DNA from: an uncultured Candidatus Saccharibacteria bacterium
GTDB taxonomy: Bacteria > Patescibacteriota > UBA1384 > JAMDBS01 > DAOVQR01
DNA length: 64,000 bases
Assembly (NCBI GenBank): GCA_964481135.1
Contig: CAYZSW010000002.1
Location: forward strand, 29,283-93,282
Direction: 5' to 3'
Part shown: positions 3,606 to 59,340 of the stretch, in pieces
How positions within the stretch are numbered: position 1 is the stretch's first letter
How the letters are laid out: the number at the start of each line of letters is the position of its first letter
Position numbers and translations under genes: made by a program
The notes under the pieces: generated by a model
Told to the model about the DNA's origin: nothing
Databases searched by the model: none
Seen by the model: only the letters and a program-made list of their open reading frames with translations

Positions 3606-4790
3606 CTAACTAAATGGACTCATTTCTCTTAATCTTTTTACAATCTTTTTTAATGTTTTAATTGTATAATCAATATCTTTTTTTGTAGTCACCTCTCCAA
3701 TAGTAAACCTAATTGATCCATGTGCATCTTCGTGCTTTAAACCTAGTGAAAGCAACACATGAGATGGTTCTAAACTTCCAGAAGTACAAGCAGATCCCGA
3801 ACTTGCAGCAATTCCCGCCATATCAAGGTGAAGTAGTATTGCTTCTCCTTCAATATATTTAAAACTAATATTAATATTGTTAGGACTTCTTAATTTTGCA
3901 TCACCATTAAGTCGAGTATCAGGAATTTCTTTTAAAATCCTATCTATAAAATAATCCCGAAGCTTCGCTAGCTGATGGCTGATAGCTGACGGCTGATAGC
4001 TTAATAGTTCTATGGCTTTAGCCATCCCAACTATTCCCGAGGTATTATATGTCCCACCCCGTAAATTATGCTCTTGTGCTCCGCCAATATTTTGATGATG
4101 TAACTTTACACCTTTTTTAACAAATAACGCGCCAATTCCTTTTGGTCCACCAAATTTATGAGCAGACAAACTCATCATATCAACACCGAGTTTTTTCACA
4201 TCACCATCAAAATATTCAATTGCCTGCACTGCATCGGTATGAAAATACAGCTTTTTGCCTTTAGCTTTTAGCTTTTGGACTAATTTGCCAATTTCTTTAA
4301 TTGGTTGAACTGTGCCGATTTCATTATTAACATACATCATTGATATTAAAACTGTATTTTTTCTAATTGCATCACTGACACTTTTAACATTTATGACACC
4401 TTTAATGCTTGGCTTTAGATAAGTAACTTCTACCAAACCTTTTTTTTCTAAATCACGGCAAACATCAATTACTGCATGATGTTCAAAAGCACTGGTTATA
4501 ATATGTGGTTTAAAATTTTTGTATGTGTAGTAAATCTCCTCAATCAAACCTCTTATTGCTAAATTATCACTTTCTGTTCCTCCTGATGTAAAAATTATTT
4601 CTTCCGGCTTACAATTTAAAAATTTAGCAATAGATCTTCGTGATTCTTCAATTGCTTTTTTTGCATCTCTTCCAAACTTATGAATACTAGATGCATTTCC
4701 AAATTCTTGCGAAAAATAAGGCATCATTGCCTTTAAAACTTCTTTTTTTACTGGGCTTGTAGCCGCATAATCTAAATATATATTTTTCAT
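3606..4790 (-). CDS. iscS: cysteine desulfurase IscS/NifS (class V aminotransferase)
   Basis: IYLDYAATSP, NASSIHKFG, SAHKFGGPKG (PLP-Lys), C-terminal SSGSACTSG. I place the start at the ATG at 4788-4790 with SD AAGGA 5 nt upstream. The ORF-track start at 4847 is a TTG that would read through the intergenic repeat 4803-4830. In-frame repeat-derived insert at 3967-4010 (LLSYQPSAISHQLAKL). Confidence 0.9.
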   Translation of the reverse strand: MKNIYLDYAATSPVKKEVLKAMMPYFSQEFGNASSIHKFGRDAKKAIEESRRSIAKFLNCKPEEIIFTSGGTESDNLAIRGLIEEIYYTYKNFKPHIITSAFEHHAVIDVCRDLEKKGLVEVTYLKPSIKGVINVKSVSDAIRKNTVLISMMYVNNEIGTVQPIKEIGKLVQKLKAKGKKLYFHTDAVQAIEYFDGDVKKLGVDMMSLSAHKFGGPKGIGALFVKKGVKLHHQNIGGAQEHNLRGGTYNTSGIVGMAKAIELLSYQPSAISHQLAKLRDYFIDRILKEIPDTRLNGDAKLRSPNNINISFKYIEGEAILLHLDMAGIAASSGSACTSGSLEPSHVLLSLGLKHEDAHGSIRFTIGEVTTKKDIDYTIKTLKKIVKRLREMSPFS

Positions 4791-14221: not shown

Positions 14222-14295
14222 AACAAATAACACTCGTCTCGACTCGGATGTCGATCCGAGGCGGGAATGACAAATAAATTACAATATCAAAACTA
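14222..14295 (+). promoter_or_regulatory. conserved intra-operon hairpin element (copy 1, before atpE)
   Basis: ACAAATAACA...GTCTCGACTCGG...hairpin CTCGGAT-GTCG-ATCCGAG...GGCGGGA...AAATTACAATATCAAAA; a near-copy at 18205-18285 shares motifs and order. Confidence 0.45.
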
Positions 14296-18204: not shown

Positions 18205-18285
18205 AATAACAAATTACAAATTTCCAATATCAAACCTGTCTCGACTTGGTCGAGCCAAGGCGGATAAATTACAATGATCAAAATC
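18205..18285 (+). promoter_or_regulatory. conserved intra-operon hairpin element (copy 2, before atpB)
   Basis: ACAAATAACA...GTCTCGACTTGG-TCGAG-CCAAGGCGGATAAATTACAATGATCAAAA; hairpin CTCGAC-TTG-GTCGAG. Confidence 0.45.
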
Positions 18286-19879: not shown

Positions 19880-19890
19880 TTAATCTAATT

Positions 19891-19935
19891 TCCCCGCCTG
19901 CCAATCGCTTGAAGCGATAGCTAATGGCGGGCAGG
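19891..19935. repeat. GC-rich nested palindromic element (family member E1) just after the atpB stop
   Basis: CCCCGCCTGCC-A-ATCGC-TTGAA-GCGAT-AGCTAATGGCG-GGCAGG: outer CCTGCC/GGCAGG and inner ATCGC/GCGAT inverted repeats; shares the CCCGCCTGCC motif with 44745 and 59291. Confidence 0.6.
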
Positions 19936-24499: not shown

Positions 24500-27400
24500 C
24501 TATTTACTTGTCTGAGTTTTCTTTAAATATTCCATCACTTCTTGATATTTTTCATCCGTTATCTTTTGATATTCCTTAAGTATCTCAAGCACATCAGTTA
24601 ATTTTAAAAGTGATGTAAGCTTATATCCTTTTTTCGCCAAATTCTTACCCCCTCCCTGTTCTCTATCTAATACTACAACTACATCTTTAACCTTCATCCC
24701 AGCTTTTTTCATTGGCTCAATATTCTCAAACTTACTTCCACCATCTGTAATCATATCATCAATAATAATACATCTATCGCCTTTTTTATAAACTCCTTCT
24801 ATTTTTCTACCCGTACCATAAGATTTAGTTTCTCGTCTGGCATAAATCATTGGTTTATTTAAAATCCTTGACATATGAACTGTAATTGGAAGTGCTGTAT
24901 ATGGAACACCTGCCATAATATCAAACTTAATATTTTTTACTAGATTTGTCATTTCTTTGGCAATTTGTTCCATTAAATCTGGGTAAGAAACTAGCGGTCT
25001 TAAATCAATGTAAATTGGTGATTTAAGTCCTGACTTTAAAGTAAAATTACCAAATTTAATTGCTTCTTTGCTAAATAAATCTAGTACTAATTTTGCGGTT
25101 TTATGTTTATTAATTTCATCACGCAATTGTTTGGTTTTTATTCTAGAAGCTTGGGCAAAATCTTTGCCACTTGATGCATAAATAATACCACGAGCAGAAT
25201 TTATTATCATTCCAAAACCTTCGGAATTCATTCCATTTTGTACCACTTCTGCCACAGATCCACCCTGCTTACCAACTCCTGGAACTAAGAATTCCATATC
25301 TGGTGCTGCTTGACGAATTTCAGCTAACTCCTCTGGATATGTTGCGCCTGCTACCATTAAAAGATTGCCATTAGTATTCCACTGGTCTCTTACTTTTTCG
25401 AGCATGTGCATATAAACCGGTTTACCATTTACATCTTTTATATCTTGAATATCACGCGCACCAGGATTTGATGAACGAACCACCACTATAACACCTTTAT
25501 CCTTATACTTAGCAAACGGTTCAATACAATCATGCCCCATATAACCATTTACAGTTGAAGCATCAAAACCGAATGTTTCAAAAATCGCCTTAGCATATGC
25601 CTCATTAGTATTGCCAATATCACCCCTTTTAGCATCAACAATAATTGGTACACCTTTTTTGTGAGCATATTCCACTGTTTTTTTCAGAGCATCTAAAGTT
25701 TCATCTGCCTCATAAAAAGCAAAATTTGGTTTATAGGCACATACTAAATCAGCTGTGGCATCAATAACAGCTTTATTAAATTGATACACTCCTTGTGAAT
25801 TTTTAGCTAACCCTTCTGGTAATTTACTAATTGATGTGTCGAGCCCCACACAAACCATTGAATTATTCTCTCTTTGTTTTTTCCTAAGCATTTCTAAAAA
25901 TGTCATATTTTTCCTTTCTTCCCCCCTGCCCGCCATCGCAAGCCTAACTTGCTCGCTTACACACCTACGAGGTGAAAGAAGTTCCACTCCTCGTAGGTGG
26001 TTTACGATTATATTTGTATTTAATTCTAATGTTCCTCTTAATTTATTAATATCATCAATATTATTATTGTGTAAATATTCTTCTATTCCTTTAACAATTT
26101 CTTGCGTAATCTTTGGGTTCAAATAATTAGCAGTTCCAACAGATACTGCAGTTGCTCCAGCCACAATAAACTCTAAAGCATCTTGCGCATTTGATATTCC
26201 ACCCATGGCAATAATTGGTATTTTTACTGCTTGATAAACCTGATGAACCATTCTTAATGCCACCGGTTTTACAGCTGGACCCGATAATCCCCCGGTATTA
26301 TTGGTTAAAATCGGTTTTCTCTGATCCAGATTAATTGCCATTCCCATTAAAGTATTAATAAGTGATACAACATCAGCACCACCATCTTCTGCTGCCTTTG
26401 CACAGGCCTTAATATCTGTCACATTAGGAGAAAGTTTCACAATAATTGGTTTATTTGTTACTTGCCGAATTTTTTGAGTCACGAGTTTAATCTCGTATGG
26501 ATCAGTTCCAATTGCCATACCAGTATGCACATTTGGACAGGAAAAATTCAATTCCAAATAATCAATTTTTTTTTCTTTATCTAGTATCTTTGCAAGTTGA
26601 ATATATTCTTTTGAATCTTTACCGGCAATCGATATAATAAGCGGTAAAAAAACCTTATTCACACCTACGAGGTGTGAACTTCTTTCACCTCGTAGATGAA
26701 TAAGTTTTGGCAATTCATTTTTAATAAAATCTTTTACCCCAGAATTTTTGAGCCCTACAGCATTTAGCATTCCACCTTCAACTTTTATCATTGTCGGCGG
26801 CTTATGTCCCTCTCGAGGTTCAAGCGTAATAGTTTTGCAAGTTAAGGCGCCAAGTTTTTTTTCATTAAGATTTTTCGAACTTGGCCAATCTACTCCATAA
26901 GTACCCGATGCAGTGGTTACCGGATTTTGCCAAGTTATCCCCGCAATCTCAACTGATAAATTTGGTTTATTTTTCATTATAAATTTAACTTCCTTGCCTT
27001 TTACCTTATCAAAAATTCTACCTCTGTCAAATACAACATTTCCATTTACGATTGTCATGATTGGCCAACCCTTTAATTTTTTGTCAACGAATGGACTCCA
27101 CCCGCATTTTGTATAAAGTTTTTGATTATTTACTTTTTTAATTAAATTCAAATCAATTATTGTTAAATCAGCATCATTTCCAATTTTTACTTCACCCTTA
27201 TTTTTAATCCCAAATATTTTCACAGAATTTTTACAAATTAAATCAATAATTTTATTTAATGATATTTTCTTTTTGTTATAAGCATCTAATAAAAGTGGCA
27301 ACATTGTTTCTACGCCAGGAACTCCAAAAGGACTGTCATCTTTTGTTTTTTCTTCCCTGGTATGAGGCGCGTGATCTGTTCCAATTGTATCAACTATCCC

Positions 27401-28183
27401 CTCATCAATCGCCTGCCAAAGCGCTTTTTGATCCTCTTTTGTTTTAAGTGACGGTTTCATCTTCACAAAATTATTTTCATCTTTTTGAGTTAAAAATAAA
27501 TGGTGCGGTGTTACTTCTACAAATAATTTGCCTGCTTTACGCAACCTTTGTGCAATAGAATTATTTCTAATGTAATCTATCTCGTTTTTTGATGAAATAT
27601 GACATAAATATAAGCAAGTTCCTGTTATTTTAGTTAAGTTGATTGCTTTTTTCACCATCTCACCTTCTGCATGCACAGCTACCATTCTAGAATTTTTCCA
27701 AATTTCTAGTAAAGTATAATCATCTTCAATCATCATTTTTCCGGTTGAAAGATTCATGAAAACTTTAGTTGCAGCAACATTTTTAACTGTTTGAATTGCA
27801 TCAATATTATCCATGCTCGAACCAAAATAAAATCCATAGTTTACCAAACTTTTTTCCGATGATATTTTTCGCTTATTTTTTAGGTCATCTAATAATAACA
27901 TTGGTGGATTATTATTGGGCATATCAAGCACTGTTGTAATTCCTCCTGTAACTGCAGCTTTTGAACCGCTTTGCCAATCCTCTTTATAACTATCCAAAAA
28001 ATCGCGAAAATGAACATGCGAGTCAATAATTCCTGGTAAAATAACCTTGCCATTTAAATTAATAGTTCTATTTGCATAAGATAATTTTTTATTTATATCA
28101 AAAATTTTTCCATCTTTAATTTGGATGTTTATTTTTTTTAGCCCCTCCATCCAAACATAACCTCCCACTAGATTGGTTTTCAT
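24500..28183 (-). CDS. four-domain pyrimidine-biosynthesis fusion protein: dihydroorotase (PyrC) - dihydroorotate dehydrogenase (PyrD) - OMP decarboxylase (PyrF) - orotate phosphoribosyltransferase (PyrE)
   Basis: 1227 aa. aa ~40-400: DHOase (GIIDSHVHFRD...TDHAPH). aa ~410-720: DHODH (VEIAGITWQNPVTTASGTYG, NFSCPNV, GGISNAQDALEFIVAGATAVSVGTA). aa ~770-990: OMPdecase (MVCVGLDTS, KPNFAFYEA, VDAKRGDIGNT). aa ~1000-1227: OPRTase (FKSGLKSPIYIDLR, IIDDMITDGGS). Start ATG overlaps the pyrI stop (ATGA). Two palindromic-element insertions in frame (25915-26000; 26654-26704). Confidence 0.9.
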   Translation of the reverse strand: MKTNLVGGYVWMEGLKKINIQIKDGKIFDINKKLSYANRTINLNGKVILPGIIDSHVHFRDFLDSYKEDWQSGSKAAVTGGITTVLDMPNNNPPMLLLDDLKNKRKISSEKSLVNYGFYFGSSMDNIDAIQTVKNVAATKVFMNLSTGKMMIEDDYTLLEIWKNSRMVAVHAEGEMVKKAINLTKITGTCLYLCHISSKNEIDYIRNNSIAQRLRKAGKLFVEVTPHHLFLTQKDENNFVKMKPSLKTKEDQKALWQAIDEGIVDTIGTDHAPHTREEKTKDDSPFGVPGVETMLPLLLDAYNKKKISLNKIIDLICKNSVKIFGIKNKGEVKIGNDADLTIIDLNLIKKVNNQKLYTKCGWSPFVDKKLKGWPIMTIVNGNVVFDRGRIFDKVKGKEVKFIMKNKPNLSVEIAGITWQNPVTTASGTYGVDWPSSKNLNEKKLGALTCKTITLEPREGHKPPTMIKVEGGMLNAVGLKNSGVKDFIKNELPKLIHLRGERSSHLVGVNKVFLPLIISIAGKDSKEYIQLAKILDKEKKIDYLELNFSCPNVHTGMAIGTDPYEIKLVTQKIRQVTNKPIIVKLSPNVTDIKACAKAAEDGGADVVSLINTLMGMAINLDQRKPILTNNTGGLSGPAVKPVALRMVHQVYQAVKIPIIAMGGISNAQDALEFIVAGATAVSVGTANYLNPKITQEIVKGIEEYLHNNNIDDINKLRGTLELNTNIIVNHLRGVELLSPRRCVSEQVRLAMAGRGEERKNMTFLEMLRKKQRENNSMVCVGLDTSISKLPEGLAKNSQGVYQFNKAVIDATADLVCAYKPNFAFYEADETLDALKKTVEYAHKKGVPIIVDAKRGDIGNTNEAYAKAIFETFGFDASTVNGYMGHDCIEPFAKYKDKGVIVVVRSSNPGARDIQDIKDVNGKPVYMHMLEKVRDQWNTNGNLLMVAGATYPEELAEIRQAAPDMEFLVPGVGKQGGSVAEVVQNGMNSEGFGMIINSARGIIYASSGKDFAQASRIKTKQLRDEINKHKTAKLVLDLFSKEAIKFGNFTLKSGLKSPIYIDLRPLVSYPDLMEQIAKEMTNLVKNIKFDIMAGVPYTALPITVHMSRILNKPMIYARRETKSYGTGRKIEGVYKKGDRCIIIDDMITDGGSKFENIEPMKKAGMKVKDVVVVLDREQGGGKNLAKKGYKLTSLLKLTDVLEILKEYQKITDEKYQEVMEYLKKTQTSK
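25915..26000. repeat. GC-rich palindromic element E2, in frame inside the fusion CDS (PyrD-PyrF linker)
   Basis: CCCCCCTGCCCGCCATCGCAAGC-CTAA-CTTGC...CACCTACGAGG-(16 nt)-CCTCGTAGGTG (11-bp perfect IR). Encodes HLRGVELLSPRRCVSEQVRLAMAGRGEE. The left module is repeated at 44715; the IR module at 26654. Confidence 0.7.
26654..26704. repeat. 51-bp palindromic element E3, in frame inside the PyrD domain
   Basis: CTTATTCA-CACCTACGAGGTG-TGAACTTCTTT-CACCTCGTAG-A-TGAATAAG; arms about 20 bp; 51 bp = 17 codons (…HLRGERSSHLVGVNK…). Confidence 0.7.
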
Positions 28184-36794: not shown

Positions 36795-36828
36795 AGTAAA
36801 TTTATTGTAACAAAAATCACCATTATAA

Positions 36829-36906
36829 CAACCTTTTACTAACCCCCGGGGTTAGCAAAAGGCTTGAACCTGCAAATTTCTAGCAAACCCCGGAAGTTAG
36901 TAATTT
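36829..36906. repeat. ~78-bp composite palindromic repeat (copy A) flanking the lipoprotein gene
   Basis: AACCTTTTACTAACCCCCGGGGTTAGCAAAAGGCTTGAACCTGCAAATTTCTAGCAAACCCCGGAAGTTAGTAATTT; about 88% identical to 37603-37684; internal hairpins CTAACCCC/GGGGTTAG. Confidence 0.75.
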
Positions 36907-36956: not shown

Positions 36957-37493
36957 TTAAGAAAATTTATATAAAATGGTACAAGAAACTGCAATAATTA
37001 AAATTAATAATATTGATGCCCAAGGAGATCGCTGATTTTTATAACTAATATCAACAAACCCATTGGTTATTAAAATTTTATTTTTTTCTTGTATTATTCC
37101 ATTCTTATAGTTTGTAATCTCACCTGGTGTGATTAATATTAAAGAATGGGGTGGCAATATAGGATCTTTGGAATAAAATCTTACATCTCCGTTTTTTGTT
37201 ACAATTTGATGCAAGCCAGTGTATGGTGGCAATTTACTAAATTGAAAATTCGCAACCAAATAACCATCATACTCTTTAATTTCTGTTACCTTAAAGCCAA
37301 GATCTGTTAATTGGCTTTCCACTTCTTGTCGAGAAATTTTTTGTTCAACTCCCATGCACACAATACTACCCTTACCACTTCCGTCTGGATTTAGTGTTAG
37401 GGTAATTTGTGCAGAACATCCATTAAAAATTACTGCGACAACAAACACTACCATAACACTTAACAATTTCCTAAAATATTTCAATACACTCAC
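36957..37493 (-). CDS. lipoprotein with C-terminal TM helix, hypothetical
   Basis: Signal peptide with lipobox VIFNGC-S; C-terminal hydrophobic ASILLILIIAVSCTILY; bracketed by the 78-bp repeat pair. Confidence 0.6.
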   Translation of the reverse strand: MSVLKYFRKLLSVMVVFVVAVIFNGCSAQITLTLNPDGSGKGSIVCMGVEQKISRQEVESQLTDLGFKVTEIKEYDGYLVANFQFSKLPPYTGLHQIVTKNGDVRFYSKDPILPPHSLILITPGEITNYKNGIIQEKNKILITNGFVDISYKNQRSPWASILLILIIAVSCTILYKFS

Positions 37494-37602: not shown

Positions 37603-37684
37603 CTAACAACCTTTTGCAAACCTACGAGGTTAGTAAAAGGCTCGAACCTGCAAATTTCTTGCAAACCCCGGAGGTTAGTAATTT
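37603..37684. repeat. ~78-bp composite palindromic repeat (copy B)
   Basis: AACCTTTTGCAAACCTACGAGGTTAGTAAAAGGCTCGAACCTGCAAATTTCTTGCAAACCCCGGAGGTTAGTAATTT; contains an internal ~23-bp direct repeat GCAAACC-NNNN-AGGTTAGTAA, each with AACC...GGTT hairpins. Confidence 0.75.
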
Positions 37685-44714: not shown

Positions 44715-44812
44715 ACCCTCCCTTGCCCGCCATCGCAAGCTTGAGCTTTACCCGCCTGCCACGACTTGTGTCTGGCATGTCGGGCATGGCTCAGGCGTTG
44801 CAGGCGTGGCTT
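44715..44812. repeat. GC-rich palindromic element E6
   Basis: CTTGCCCGCCATCGCAAGCTTGAGC (as in E2) + CCCGCCTGCC (as in E1) + CGCCTGC...GCAGGCG inverted repeat; GC-rich island in AT-rich DNA. Confidence 0.65.
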
Positions 44813-44876
44813 CTTTATATTTAATTTTTAACTCATTAATGTTAACTGTTAATTGTTAATTGTTATTTGTTAATTA

Positions 44877-55064: not shown

Positions 55065-55121
55065 TCTTTAGTAATTTTTCTAAGCTCTAAAACTTAGATT
55101 GCTTACCCGCTAAGGCCTAAG

Positions 55122-55172
55122 CTGGGAAACTAGGATTCGAACCAAGATTGACAGATTTAGAGTCCGCTGTCC
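55122..55172 (-). other. tRNA-Gln-derived 3' fragment (anticodon arm with CUA + T-arm + acceptor 3' strand; no matching 5' half)
   Basis: Minus strand: ...GACAGCGGACUCUAAAUCUGUCAAUCUUGGUUCGAAUCCUAGUUUCCCAG; aligns base for base with the 3' 50 nt of the adjacent tRNA-Gln (…ACGGACUCUGAAUCCGUCAAUCUUGGUUCGAAUCCAAGUCCCGGAG) but with anticodon CUA (amber); upstream is an unrelated hairpin (CCUGCC-GAUGA-GGCAGG) instead of a D-arm. Confidence 0.5.
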
Positions 55173-55238
55173 CTGCCTCATCGGCAGGTCGCCGACGAGA
55201 CGACTACTATCTCAAATATGAATTCATTGATCACACAG

Positions 55239-59290: not shown

Positions 59291-59340
59291 TTCCCCGCCT
59301 GTCATGCCTGTAGCAAGGCTCTGACGGGCAGGCATTCAGG
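59291..59340. repeat. GC-rich palindromic element E7
   Basis: CCCCGCCTG-TCATGCCTG-TAGCAAGGCTC-TGACGGGCAGGCATTCAGG; shares CCCGCCTG with E1/E6; upstream lies GATTATCCACCTACGCTC (DnaA-box-like plus the CACCTACG core of E2/E3). Confidence 0.6.

What the first reader, a model, noticed from the sequence alone, without database searches (positions are those of the whole stretch)
25915..26704. RPE-like palindromic elements inserted in frame inside the pyrimidine fusion gene, members of a dispersed GC-rich element family
Two GC-rich palindromic elements lie inside the 1227-aa pyr fusion CDS without breaking the frame. One is a 51-bp element at 26654-26704 (17 codons) with ~20-bp arms around CACCTACGAGGTG. 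The other is an ~85-bp element at 25915-26000 with an 11-bp perfect IR CACCTACGAGG/CCTCGTAGGTG plus a CTGCCCGCCATCGCAAGC module. Related modules recur intergenically: CCCGCCTGCC at 19891, 44745 and 59291; CTGCCCGCCATCGCAAGC at 44715; CCTACGAGG inside the 78-bp repeats at 36829 and 37603. This is the behaviour described for Rickettsia palindromic elements, which are selfish elements tolerated as peptide inserts. Here they occur in an unrelated AT-rich lineage, and as GC islands they are easy to see against the background.
Basis: partly seen in the sequence, partly recalled or inferred. Interest (0 to 1): 0.8.

Follow-up and report, generated by a model that had tools for sequence, protein, structure and literature searches.

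The report
Tiny hairpin repeats inside bacterial genes
Two copies of a 37-base DNA hairpin repeat sit inside a pyrimidine-synthesis gene and are read through as extra protein loops, and nearly the same hairpin occurs almost letter-perfect inside many unrelated housekeeping genes of related ultra-small (CPR/Patescibacteria) bacteria, a gene-dwelling repeat family I could not find described.

Summary
Two related hairpins (26662-26698 and 25962-25999, opposite orientations) lie in frame in a 1227-aa PyrC-PyrD-PyrF-PyrE fusion. Two of three relatives at 72-78% identity, including the closest, lack both inserts. They are diverged copies of a 37-nt hairpin, CACCTCCGAGGTG-AAAGAAGTTCA-CACCTCGGAGGTG. 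I found about 66 more copies in Patescibacteria contigs (Beckwithbacteria/Microgenomates), almost all inside long ORFs (RecJ, LeuRS, Obg, UppS, TsaD, MgsA and others), in four reading frames and both orientations. Stems covary (5 of 13 pairs compensated) and the loop is invariant. Orthologous copies differ at 0-1 of 37 bases although flanking synonymous sites are saturated. Single-arm remnants exist, 24 nt (8 codons) shorter. No target-site duplication is visible. RAYT-like Y1 transposase genes lie near several copies, and one type is flanked by palindromes with the same stem. Best reading: a miniature REP-doublet (REPIN/BIME-like) hairpin that behaves like Rickettsia palindromic elements (RPEs) but belongs to neither family. 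In this 64-kb window the 37-nt family occurs only in this gene. How it moves, and why it is so conserved, remain unresolved.

The parts
24500..28183 (-). Host gene: 1227-aa PyrC-PyrD-PyrF-PyrE fusion (dihydroorotase, dihydroorotate dehydrogenase, OMP decarboxylase, orotate phosphoribosyltransferase)
   Evidence: ORF. Pfam: Amidohydro_1 at 47-384, DHO_dh at 409-704, OMPdecase at 776-1006, Pribosyltran at 1073-1180. The identical protein is encoded in three separate assemblies.
26662..26698 (-). Element B core: 37-nt hairpin. The sense strand reads CATCTACGAGGTG-AAAGAAGTTCA-CACCTCGTAGGTG and is translated as HLRGERSSHLVG
   Evidence: Covariance-model score 61.5 bits, but this copy is one of the model's own training sequences. 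It differs from the family consensus at 3 of 37 bases.
26654..26704 (-). Extended 51-nt palindrome around element B (CTTATTCA...TGAATAAG). The net insertion relative to empty relatives is 42 nt (14 codons, aa ~495-508). On the sense strand it is followed by GTTTTTTT
   Evidence: Fold -25.1 kcal/mol, z -6.47. Codon alignment. A 12-residue gap opposite it in solved PyrD 1EP1/5UE9. In the AF2 model, coil with pLDDT below 50 at fragment residues 99-107. Terminator-like match.
25962..25999 (+). Element A core: 38-nt hairpin CACCTACGAGGTG-AAAGAAGTTCCA-CTCCTCGTAGGTG, antisense to the gene. Translated as NHLRGVELLSPRRC
   Evidence: Covariance-model score 58.4 bits, but this copy is one of the model's own training sequences. 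Fold -22.7 kcal/mol, z -4.96. No hairpin at this site in P0002, P0003 or P0004.
25921..25955 (.). Second GC-rich module next to element A (CCCCCCTGCCCGCCATCGCAAGCCTAACTTGCTCG), belonging to a different hairpin family
   Evidence: A related module occupies the same linker site in relative L004, in reverse complement: CCTGCCCGCCAGCGCTAGGCGAAGCCGTTGCGGGCGT.
25928..26008 (-). The whole 27-codon lineage-specific insertion in the PyrD-PyrF linker (aa ~726-752): element A plus the second module
   Evidence: Alignment A1. Codon alignment. It lies within the AF2 segment 322-356 with pLDDT below 50.
44715..44813 (+). Intergenic 90-nt GC-rich hairpin after tRNA-Glu. Shares TTGCCCGCCATCGCAAGC and CCCGCCTGCC with the second module. 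Not a copy of the 37-nt hairpin
   Evidence: Fold -52.7 kcal/mol, z -6.1. No Rfam match.
19889..19935 (+). Intergenic hairpin CCCCGCCTGCC...GGCGGGCAGG of the second-module family
   Evidence: Fold -22.9 kcal/mol, z -3.21.
59291..59335 (+). Intergenic hairpin CCCCGCCTGTC...GACGGGCAGG of the second-module family
   Evidence: Fold -27.1 kcal/mol, z -2.93.

Best explanation
The two inserts are diverged copies of a miniature hairpin repeat of Patescibacteria. Its consensus is a 13-bp stem and an 11-nt loop, CACCTCCGAGGTG-AAAGAAGTTCA-CACCTCGGAGGTG.

Each arm is itself a short palindrome. The unit is therefore a doublet of REP-like palindromes in inverted orientation joined by a conserved linker, the architecture of a REPIN or BIME in miniature.

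Unlike REPs, it lives inside coding sequence. It lacks stop codons in four or five of the six frames, depending on the loop variant. Copies that keep the reading frame are translated as 12-14 extra, mostly hydrophilic residues in loops or interdomain linkers.

In this window:
- Copy B sits in a helix-to-strand loop of the PyrD TIM barrel.
- Copy A sits in the PyrD-PyrF linker beside an older, unrelated GC-rich module.
- A and B share a compensated stem change found in no other copy. One therefore derives from the other, or both come from one lineage-specific source. A is most likely a short-range copy made after this lineage split from its relatives.

Shown: family membership, in-frame intragenic habit, presence/absence, stem covariation, solo-arm remnants.

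Inferred: propagation as a single-stranded DNA hairpin by a RAYT-like Y1 (HUH) transposase without target duplication; loss by slippage between the two nearly identical arms (24 nt, 8 codons); maintenance of perfect stems by intra-hairpin templated correction.
For: Presence and absence in the pyr gene:
- P0002 and P0004 lack both inserts.
- P0003 has a chimeric copy at site B and only the GC-rich module at site A.

Family:
- A GTDB scan gave about 12 true copies in Beckwithbacteria, Saccharibacteria and mislabelled MAGs.
- A metagenome scan gave 50 loci.
- The covariance model found about 66 strong copies, including several loci with 2-4.
- Further subfamilies with other stems or loops exist.

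Intragenic habit:
- 18 host groups, almost all in ORFs of 133-1129 aa.
- Frames seen: HLRGERSSHLGG, TSEVKEV[H/P]TSEV, TSEVGTSFTSEV, HLRGVNFFHLGG.
- Hosts by Pfam: RecJ, LeuRS, UppS, NiFe hydrogenase, radical SAM, MgsA, TsaD, a Sua5-TsaE linker, Obg.

Structure:
- 96.6% of cells paired and 5 of 13 pairs compensated.
- Covariation score 0.316 against 0.158 in shuffles (0 of 500 reached it). Loop invariant.
- Both window copies share the C-G to A-T swap.

Solo arm: at the Obg site, L086 carries CATCTCCGAGGTG alone, 24 nt shorter than the filled L076 and L088. L087 is empty.

Position in the protein:
- Solved PyrD has a 12-residue gap at site B.
- AF2 gives pLDDT below 50 over both inserts.

RAYT link:
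- Y1_Tnp genes lie 0.8-5.5 kb from the hairpin in 5 of 18 groups.
- Their only NCBIfam hit is REP-associated tyrosine transposase, at 53-57 bits.
- Those in L054, L069 and L077 are flanked by AACACCTCTAAGGTGTT or CACACCTCTAAGGTGTG. That is the same CACCT/AGGTG stem as the arm CACACCTCGGAGGTGTG.
- No target-site duplication is visible.

Not an assembly artefact: the protein is identical in three assemblies.
Against: - Copy number is low. There are 2 copies in 64 kb here, and the model finds no other. The exact pattern hit only 1-2 loci per GTDB MAG.
- No Y1 gene lies in the window.
- Most nearby RAYT-like genes are flanked by quite different palindromes, whereas the hairpin is the same everywhere. 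I have no control for how common these genes are.
- The RAYT-like proteins score below NCBIfam's cut-off of 80 bits.
- A 37-nt insert cannot preserve the frame by itself. Net changes against empty sites were 42, 45 and 21 nt, so insertion is not a clean cut-and-paste.
- Orthologous copies differ at 0-1 of 37 bases while flanking third codon positions are 29-50% identical in all but one stretch (72%). A decaying selfish insert would not show this.
- The closest relatives are empty while more distant ones are filled, in both the pyr gene and Obg.
Confidence: 0.78

Rival explanations
1. The hairpin is kept by the host, or by a hairpin-binding partner protein, as a working cis-element in DNA or mRNA. 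It could be a protein-binding site, a translation pause or attenuator built from SD/anti-SD sequence, or an mRNA processing or stability signal. On this view the peptide is a by-product. This can be true in addition to a mobile origin.
For: - Copies differ at 0-1 of 37 bases across orthologues whose flanks are 53-69% identical, with one stretch at 84%, and whose third positions are 29-50% identical, with one stretch at 72%.
- The loop AAAGAAGT is invariant while stems covary.
- 15 of 18 host groups carry the loop AAAGAAGTTCA on the sense strand.
- The arms equal the anti-Shine-Dalgarno CACCTCC and the Shine-Dalgarno GGAGGTG (direct reading plus general knowledge of the 16S 3' end).
- On the sense strand, element B's 3' arm hairpin is followed by a T-run.
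- REPIN-RAYT systems are argued to be vertically inherited and beneficial (bioRxiv 10.1101/2021.07.10.451892).
Against: - Close relatives do without it: P0002 and P0004 in the pyr gene, and P0076 and P0077 in Obg.
- Decayed, chimeric and solo-arm copies exist.
- The host genes share no pathway.
- The window copies have drifted at 3-5 positions.
- The orientation bias could come from peptide tolerance or from strand-biased insertion.
- The number of terminator-like hits is no higher than in shuffles.
Confidence: 0.3
2. The identity of copies in different genomes reflects recent, repeated insertion into the same preferred sites, or spread of filled alleles by recombination between related populations. 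On this view the copies are young and under no constraint.
For: - Filled and empty states do not follow relatedness. P0001 and P0002 are the closest pair (77.7%), yet only P0001 and P0003 are filled.
- In Obg, the 92% and 84% relatives are empty while the 72% and 68% relatives are filled.
- One site carries the loop in either orientation in different samples (L038 and L081 against L083 and L085).
- Several genes hold 2-3 copies within 1 kb.
Against: - No conserved target sequence or duplication flanks the copies.
- Flanks 53-69% identical are too diverged for homologous exchange of just the insert.
- Hitting exactly the same codon in RecJ, LeuRS, UppS and Obg in separate lineages would need a targeting rule that I cannot see.
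Confidence: 0.25
3. The segments are native protein sequence, an assembly artefact or a chance palindrome.
For: Nothing beyond the fact that the ORF stays open.
Against: - The nucleotide sequence recurs in three frames and both orientations in unrelated proteins.
- Two relatives lack it.
- It is identical in three independent assemblies.
- The motif count is far above shuffles, and fold z-scores are -5 to -6.5.
Confidence: 0.02

Closest known systems
Rickettsia palindromic elements (RPEs)
   Same: Both are palindromic repeats that insert into unrelated protein-coding genes without breaking the frame and are carried as extra peptide. The inserts land where the fold tolerates them (PMC10969869).
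   Different: - RPEs are about 150 bp, in ten families, with 44 copies in R. conorii, and each encodes a conserved peptide. This unit is 37 nt and adds 12-14 residues, read in four frames.
- This element occurs in Patescibacteria.
- Its copies are far better conserved than their host genes.
- I made no direct sequence comparison with RPE consensus sequences.
REP / REPIN-RAYT systems and BIMEs (gammaproteobacteria)
   Same: - Short imperfect palindromes are paired in inverted orientation to form a hairpin.
- Singlets occur as remnants.
- Y1 transposase genes flanked by palindromes are nearby.
- No target duplication is seen.
- Long vertical persistence is proposed for REPINs (PMC3337134; bioRxiv 10.1101/2021.07.10.451892).
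- A conserved linker between REPs is a BIME trait (my own knowledge).
   Different: - REPs are by definition extragenic and number in the hundreds. These copies are mostly intragenic and few per genome.
- The doublet is 37 nt, against about 89 nt.
- The REPIN spacer is variable, whereas here the loop is invariant.
- The cognate RAYT is not established.
Classical bacterial MITEs that make in-frame fusions (ERIC, BOX, Anabaena MITEs)
   Same: They are short, non-autonomous repeats with inverted ends that sometimes sit in ORFs in frame (PMC10969869).
   Different: MITEs are typically 100-400 bp, have target-site duplications and derive from a parent IS. No duplication or parent IS was seen here.
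GC clusters and 'byp' elements of yeast mitochondria; palindromic coding repeats of Methanocaldococcus jannaschii (from my own knowledge, not checked here)
   Same: These are GC-rich palindromic mini-elements in AT-rich genomes that enter coding sequence.
   Different: The organisms are different. Byp elements are skipped by the ribosome, whereas here an open frame runs through every copy. I made no sequence comparison.

Membership tests
Rickettsia palindromic elements | Palindromic repeat inserted in frame in unrelated protein genes | tested here: met
Rickettsia palindromic elements | Length about 100-150 bp, encoding a conserved peptide module | tested here: not met
   The unit is 37-38 nt and is read in four frames. 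RPE size is taken from PMC10969869.
Rickettsia palindromic elements | Sequence homology to the RPE families, and occurrence in Rickettsiales | not tested
   I had no RPE consensus to compare. The host is Patescibacteria, by the names of its nearest relatives.
REP / REPIN | Short imperfect palindrome (REP) as the basic unit | tested here: met
   Each arm, CACCTC-C/G-GAGGTG, is itself a palindrome. It extends to CACACCTCGGAGGTGTG in several copies.
REP / REPIN | Two REPs in inverted orientation forming a hairpin | tested here: met
   Fold -24.4 kcal/mol, z -6.59. Covariation.
REP / REPIN | Extragenic location | tested here: not met
   About 16 of 18 host groups are in ORFs of 133 aa or more.
REP / REPIN | High copy number per genome (tens to hundreds) | tested here: inconclusive
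   There are 2 copies in 64 kb, 1-2 loci per GTDB MAG by exact pattern, and up to 4 in 9.3 kb of L036. No whole genome was available.
REP / REPIN | Cognate RAYT gene flanked by the same REPs | tested here: inconclusive
   RAYT-like genes lie near copies. Only the L054/L069/L077 type has flanking palindromes with the same stem. None is in the window.
REP / REPIN | Singlets as decayed remnants of doublets | tested here: met
   Solo arm at the Obg site. Half copies in L039 and L058.
MITE | Target-site duplication flanking terminal inverted repeats | tested here: not met
   No direct repeat appears at the flanks of more than 20 distinct sites.
Intrinsic terminator | GC-rich hairpin followed by a U-tract at the end of a transcription unit | tested here: inconclusive
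   Element B's 3' arm hairpin is followed by GTTTTTTT on the sense strand, but it lies inside the ORF, and the count of such hits equals that in shuffles. Other copies have no T-run.
Any Rfam RNA family | Match to a curated covariance model | tested here: not met
   Only tRNAs reach threshold. Nothing overlaps any of the hairpins, even at E up to 1.

The most novel reading that the evidence does not exclude
Patescibacteria carry a vertically inherited hairpin system constrained at the nucleotide level, an intragenic counterpart of REPIN-RAYT. With almost no intergenic space available, it has moved into the loops and linkers of housekeeping proteins. It is kept letter-perfect because a partner protein or the translation/transcription machinery reads it. 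On this view the 37-nt hairpin is a working cis-element embedded in coding sequence, not decaying junk.
Probability: 0.3. Interest if true: 0.85.

Novelty: new variant of a known kind. Interest (0 to 1): 0.75.

Why it matters
The best-described case of palindromic repeats entering proteins in frame on a large scale is Rickettsia. Here the same habit appears in an unrelated radiation of ultra-small bacteria, with a much smaller unit built like a REP doublet. That links two repeat classes usually treated separately: extragenic REP/REPINs and intragenic RPEs.

The near-perfect conservation of the copies across saturated divergence makes one open question testable. Are such hairpins parasites, or partners that the cell or a domesticated transposase maintains?

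There are practical consequences too. These 12-14-residue inserts (HLRGERSSHLGG, TSEVKEVHTSEV and variants) will distort alignments and structure predictions of CPR proteins. They also offer markers for tracking lineages.

Tried and rejected
- **Protein-database census of the encoded peptide.** A profile of HLRGERSSHLGG scores perfect matches at E = 5-22 for that database size. I dropped it.
- **Viral contigs.** No hit, so there is no sign of a phage origin.
- **Rfam, at gathering threshold and at E up to 1.** No family matches any hairpin.
- **Covariance model over the window.** No copy beyond A and B. The partial matches at 37619 (inside the 81-nt repeat) and 53399 (native FtsH N-terminus, IAYEVK) are a different family and a chance match.
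- **Target-site duplication or a conserved target.** None found. Position -1 is never G and position +1 never C, which only marks where the stem ends.
- **A Y1 transposase in the window.** tblastn was negative. Pfam on 10 further window ORFs found no transposase.
- **Literature.** No paper holds the element sequence or its peptides, and none describes REPs or MITEs of this kind in CPR.
- **GC-rich islands in other window ORFs.** The island in MnmA (1688) lies next to an ordinary low-complexity stretch. Those at 3966 and 5999 read as simple tandem repeats. None is a hairpin copy.
- **Whether the PyrD-PyrF fusion was created by element A.** Rejected. Relatives without the hairpin are fused too.
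Full report
**1. What is in the window**

The minus-strand ORF 24500..28183 encodes a 1227-aa fusion of dihydroorotase, dihydroorotate dehydrogenase (PyrD, Pfam 409-704), OMP decarboxylase (PyrF, 776-1006) and orotate phosphoribosyltransferase. The window has 31% G+C.

Two hairpins lie in this ORF without breaking the frame.
- Element B has 13-nt arms at 26662-26674 and 26686-26698 and an 11-nt loop. The palindrome extends to 26654-26704.
- Element A has arms at 25962-25974 and 25987-25999.
- The two are about 90% identical copies in opposite orientation (pair I1).

Their sense-strand folds are -25.1 and -22.7 kcal/mol, with z-scores of -6.5 and -5.0 against shuffles. The arm motif occurs 6 times against 0.22 expected. 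The same protein is encoded in three independent assemblies, so this is not an assembly artefact.

**2. The inserts are lineage-specific**

The protein database holds three relatives at 72-78% identity. In the alignment, P0002 and P0004 lack both inserts.

P0003 has an insert at site B that begins with the same peptide, HLRGERSSH. At site A it has a shorter, different insert.

The codon alignment gives these net sizes:
- Site B is 42 nt longer than the empty sites in the window, and 45 nt longer in P0003's contig L004.
- Site A carries 27 extra codons in the window.

L004's site B has the same left arm and loop, followed by a different hairpin.

The PyrD-PyrF fusion also exists in the relatives without the hairpin, so the element did not create it.

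Against solved PyrD of Lactococcus DHODB (1EP1, 5UE9), site B is a 12-residue gap between the 'LPWLN' helix and the 'PIIANVAG' strand. Helix-to-strand loops of TIM barrels lie on the face away from the active site (general knowledge).

An AlphaFold2 model (mean pLDDT 77.8, pTM 0.80) places both inserts in low-confidence regions:
- Insert B is in a coil with pLDDT below 50, at fragment residues 99-107.
- Insert A is within the linker segment 322-356, also below 50.

**3. The family**

A scan of one genome per species (GTDB) with CTNCGAGGTGAAAGAAGTT returned 29 loci. About 12 of them carry a complete hairpin, CACCTCCGAGGTG-AAAGAAGTTC(A/C)-CACCTCGGAGGTG. These come from Beckwithbacteria MAGs, from MAGs labelled 'Pseudomonadales' with 43-46% G+C, and in variant form from a Saccharibacteria MAG. 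The remainder are chance hits lacking a second arm.

A metagenome scan gave 50 more loci, nearly all with the same 37-mer. Viral contigs gave none. A covariance model built from ten distinct copies finds about 66 strong copies in the fetched loci, and some loci hold 2-4.

The nearest named relatives of an Obg host protein are Beckwithbacteria, Microgenomates and 'Patescibacteria group'. Those of the window's MetRS are Woesebacteria, Blackburnbacteria and 'Patescibacteria group'. The window therefore comes from the same radiation.

**4. The copies live inside genes**

The copies fall into 18 host-protein groups, and in nearly all of them the copy lies in an open frame of 133-1129 aa.

Pfam identifies these hosts:
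- RecJ
- LeuRS
- UppS
- a cytidylyltransferase
- a NiFe-hydrogenase large subunit
- a B12-binding radical SAM enzyme
- MgsA
- TsaD
- the linker of a Sua5-TsaE fusion
- Obg
- a large protein with a Peptidase_S74 domain

Four frames are used:
- forward frame 0: HLRGERSSHLGG
- forward frame 1: TSEVKEV[H/P]TSEV
- reverse frame 1: TSEVGTSFTSEV, open only in the C-loop variant, which avoids TGA
- reverse frame 0: HLRGVNFFHLGG

Forward frame 2 contains TGA.

Fifteen of the 18 groups have the loop AAAGAAGTTCA on the sense strand. Several genes hold two or three copies within 1 kb (L016, L047, L051, L073), as the window's pyr gene does.

**5. Structure is conserved**

Subfamilies keep the loop and change the stem in a compensated way.
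- Type II, in L019 and L036, is CACTCCCGGAGTG...CACTCCGGGAGTG. Four positions per arm are changed.
- The window type has C-G replaced by A-T at stem position 6, in both copies A and B and in no other copy.

Counted on ten sequences, 96.6% of cells pair, 5 of 13 pairs show changes on both sides, and the covariation score is 0.316 against 0.158 in shuffles (0 of 500 reach it). Loop positions AAAGAAGT never vary. This set is small and includes the window copies. The tool warns that related sequences can beat the shuffles without any structure. The slid-partner control is also clearly lower (at most 56% paired).

Because A and B alone share the swap, one derives from the other or both from one lineage-specific source. 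No relative has a hairpin at site A. A is therefore most simply a local copy made in this lineage (inference).

**6. Unexpected conservation**

At orthologous filled sites I compared the 60 flanking codons on each side.
- Nucleotide identity of the flanks is 53-69%.
- Third-position identity of the flanks is 29-50%.
- One flank of one pair is the exception, at 84% nucleotide and 72% third-position identity.
- The element differs at 0-1 of its 37 bases.

The same codon position is occupied in RecJ proteins 57% identical, in LeuRS about 60-66% identical, in UppS 71% identical and in Obg 73% identical. A decaying selfish insert should not behave this way.

Occupancy also does not follow relatedness.
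- P0001 and P0002 are the closest pair (77.7%), yet P0001 and P0003 are the filled ones.
- At the Obg site the 92% and 84% relatives are empty, with an unrelated loop QPSKG. The 72% and 68% relatives are filled.

I cannot decide among three explanations: nucleotide-level constraint, repeated re-insertion or conversion, and allele exchange.

**7. Gain, loss and flipping**

At the Obg site a cluster of relatives at about 70% identity has only (T/I)SEV. At the DNA level this is a single arm, CATCTCCGAGGTG, exactly 24 nt (8 codons) shorter than the filled state.

The two arms are also near-identical direct repeats, because each arm is itself a palindrome. Slippage between them would give exactly this in-frame deletion (inference).

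Other states are also seen:
- Half copies exist in L039 and L058.
- One site carries the loop in either orientation in different samples: L038 and L081 against L083 and L085.
- No target-site duplication is visible at more than 20 sites.

A 37-nt unit cannot keep the frame on its own. The net differences from empty sites are 42, 45 and 21 nt. Insertion is therefore accompanied by local gain or loss of sequence, or only rare frame-preserving events survive.

**8. A candidate mobilising enzyme**

The Obg locus L088 has a Y1_Tnp gene directly upstream. Homologues lie 0.8-5.5 kb from the hairpin in 5 of 18 host groups.

Their only NCBIfam hit is 'REP-associated tyrosine transposase', at E about 1e-14 to 1e-15 and 53-57 bits. 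This is below the curated cut-off of 80 bits.

Each gene is bracketed by its own palindromes, as RAYT genes are (PMC3337134).
- In L069 these are CACACCTCTAAGGTGTG, and in L054 and L077 AACACCTCTAAGGTGTT.
- Both have the same CACCT/AGGTG stem as the hairpin arm CACACCTCGGAGGTGTG and the window's CACACCTACGAGGTGTG.
- In the other loci the flanking palindromes are unrelated to the hairpin.

There is no Y1 gene in the 64-kb window. I also have no control for how common these genes are in such genomes. The link is a lead, not a result.

The sense-strand orientation bias would fit strand-biased single-strand transposition (my own knowledge of IS200/IS605). It would equally fit selection on the encoded peptide.

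**9. The other 'modules'**

The segment next to element A (25921-25955) shares CCTGCCCGCCATCGCAAGC with a 90-nt hairpin after tRNA-Glu (44715-44813; -52.7 kcal/mol, z -6.1). It shares CCTGCCCGCC with the reverse complement of the hairpins at 19889-19935 and 59291-59335.

A related module sits at the same linker site in L004, and another in a Saccharibacteria contig. This is a second GC-rich hairpin family, older at site A than the 37-nt hairpin. It is not a copy of the 37-nt hairpin.

The 81-nt direct repeats at 36826 and 37604 are a third family, and only the second contains CCTACGAGG. None of these matches Rfam.

**10. Comparison with known systems and verdict**

In behaviour this is what RPEs do: in-frame palindromic inserts in unrelated genes (PMC10969869). 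In size and host it is not an RPE.

In architecture it is a REP doublet (REPIN/BIME-like), with solo remnants and RAYT-like neighbours. It fails two REP criteria, however: it is not extragenic, and copy number looks low.

I found no description of the sequence, its peptides or anything comparable in CPR. I rate it a new variant of a known kind.

Confidence by claim:
- High: it is a dispersed, in-frame hairpin repeat family, and the two window inserts are members.
- Moderate to low: its mobilisation by a Y1 transposase.
- Open: why the copies are so conserved.

Noticed in passing
window 24500-28183 (-): The host gene is a four-domain PyrC-PyrD-PyrF-PyrE fusion. Relatives P0003 and P0004 start at PyrD. 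In-frame ATG codons remain at the old pyrD and pyrF starts, and pyrF's is preceded by a Shine-Dalgarno-like GAAAGGA.
   Followed up: partly
window 36826-36906 and 37604-37684: Two 81-nt direct repeats (89% identical) bracket ORF 36957-37493 (-), 178 aa, with no Pfam hit. Their first hairpin differs by compensated changes (AACCCCCGGGGTT against AACCTACGAGGTT).
   Followed up: partly
window 44715-44813 (+): A 90-nt GC-rich hairpin lies just after tRNA-Glu and a terminator-like stem. Fold is -52.7 kcal/mol, z -6.1, with no Rfam match. It may be an undescribed small RNA or a composite repeat.
   Followed up: partly
window 14231-14272 and 18233-18265: Two related GC-rich hairpins (GTCTCGACTyGG...CCrAGGCGG) sit in spacers of the V-type ATPase operon, each between similar AT-rich flanks.
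   Followed up: no
window 55120-55213 (-): A partial duplicate (85%) of the 3' two-thirds of the neighbouring tRNA-Gln(CTG) gene. The anticodon position reads CTA, and the 5' part is replaced by a GC-rich hairpin (CCTGCCGATGAGGCAGG). Neither tRNA tool calls it.
   Followed up: partly
window 26657-26679 (-) and downstream: On the sense strand the 3' arm of element B forms a 10-bp hairpin followed by AAGGTTTTTT. This is terminator-like and lies inside the ORF. The count of such hits in the region is no higher than in shuffles.
   Followed up: partly
family consensus (e.g. L076:1935-1971): The arms contain CACCTCC, which matches the anti-Shine-Dalgarno end of 16S rRNA, and GGAGGTG, a perfect Shine-Dalgarno sequence. 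Subfamilies keep GGAG- or GAGG-like cores. The significance is unknown.
   Followed up: no
L088:2270-2923, L086, L076, L011, L019, L054, L069, L077: RAYT-like Y1 transposase genes of about 210-230 aa are each bracketed by a lineage-specific palindrome. Examples are GGAAGGGTCGGATCCTTCC, TTAACAAAGGACAGTCCTTTGTTAA and CACACCTCTAAGGTGTG. These look like REP-RAYT systems in Patescibacteria.
   Followed up: partly
L038/L081 versus L083/L085: The flanks are the same, but the 11-nt loop of the hairpin is inverted between samples. Either the loop flipped between the arms or there were two insertions in opposite orientation.
   Followed up: partly
L024:1653-1765 (also L064, L079): Three arms are spaced 33 nt apart, followed by a full hairpin. 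They are translated as LTSEV...LTSEV...LTSEVKEVPTSEV, a tandem build-up of arms inside one large protein.
   Followed up: no
L084:2184-2885 (-): The hairpin sits in the linker between the Sua5/YrdC and TsaE domains of a fusion protein. This mirrors element A in the PyrD-PyrF linker.
   Followed up: partly
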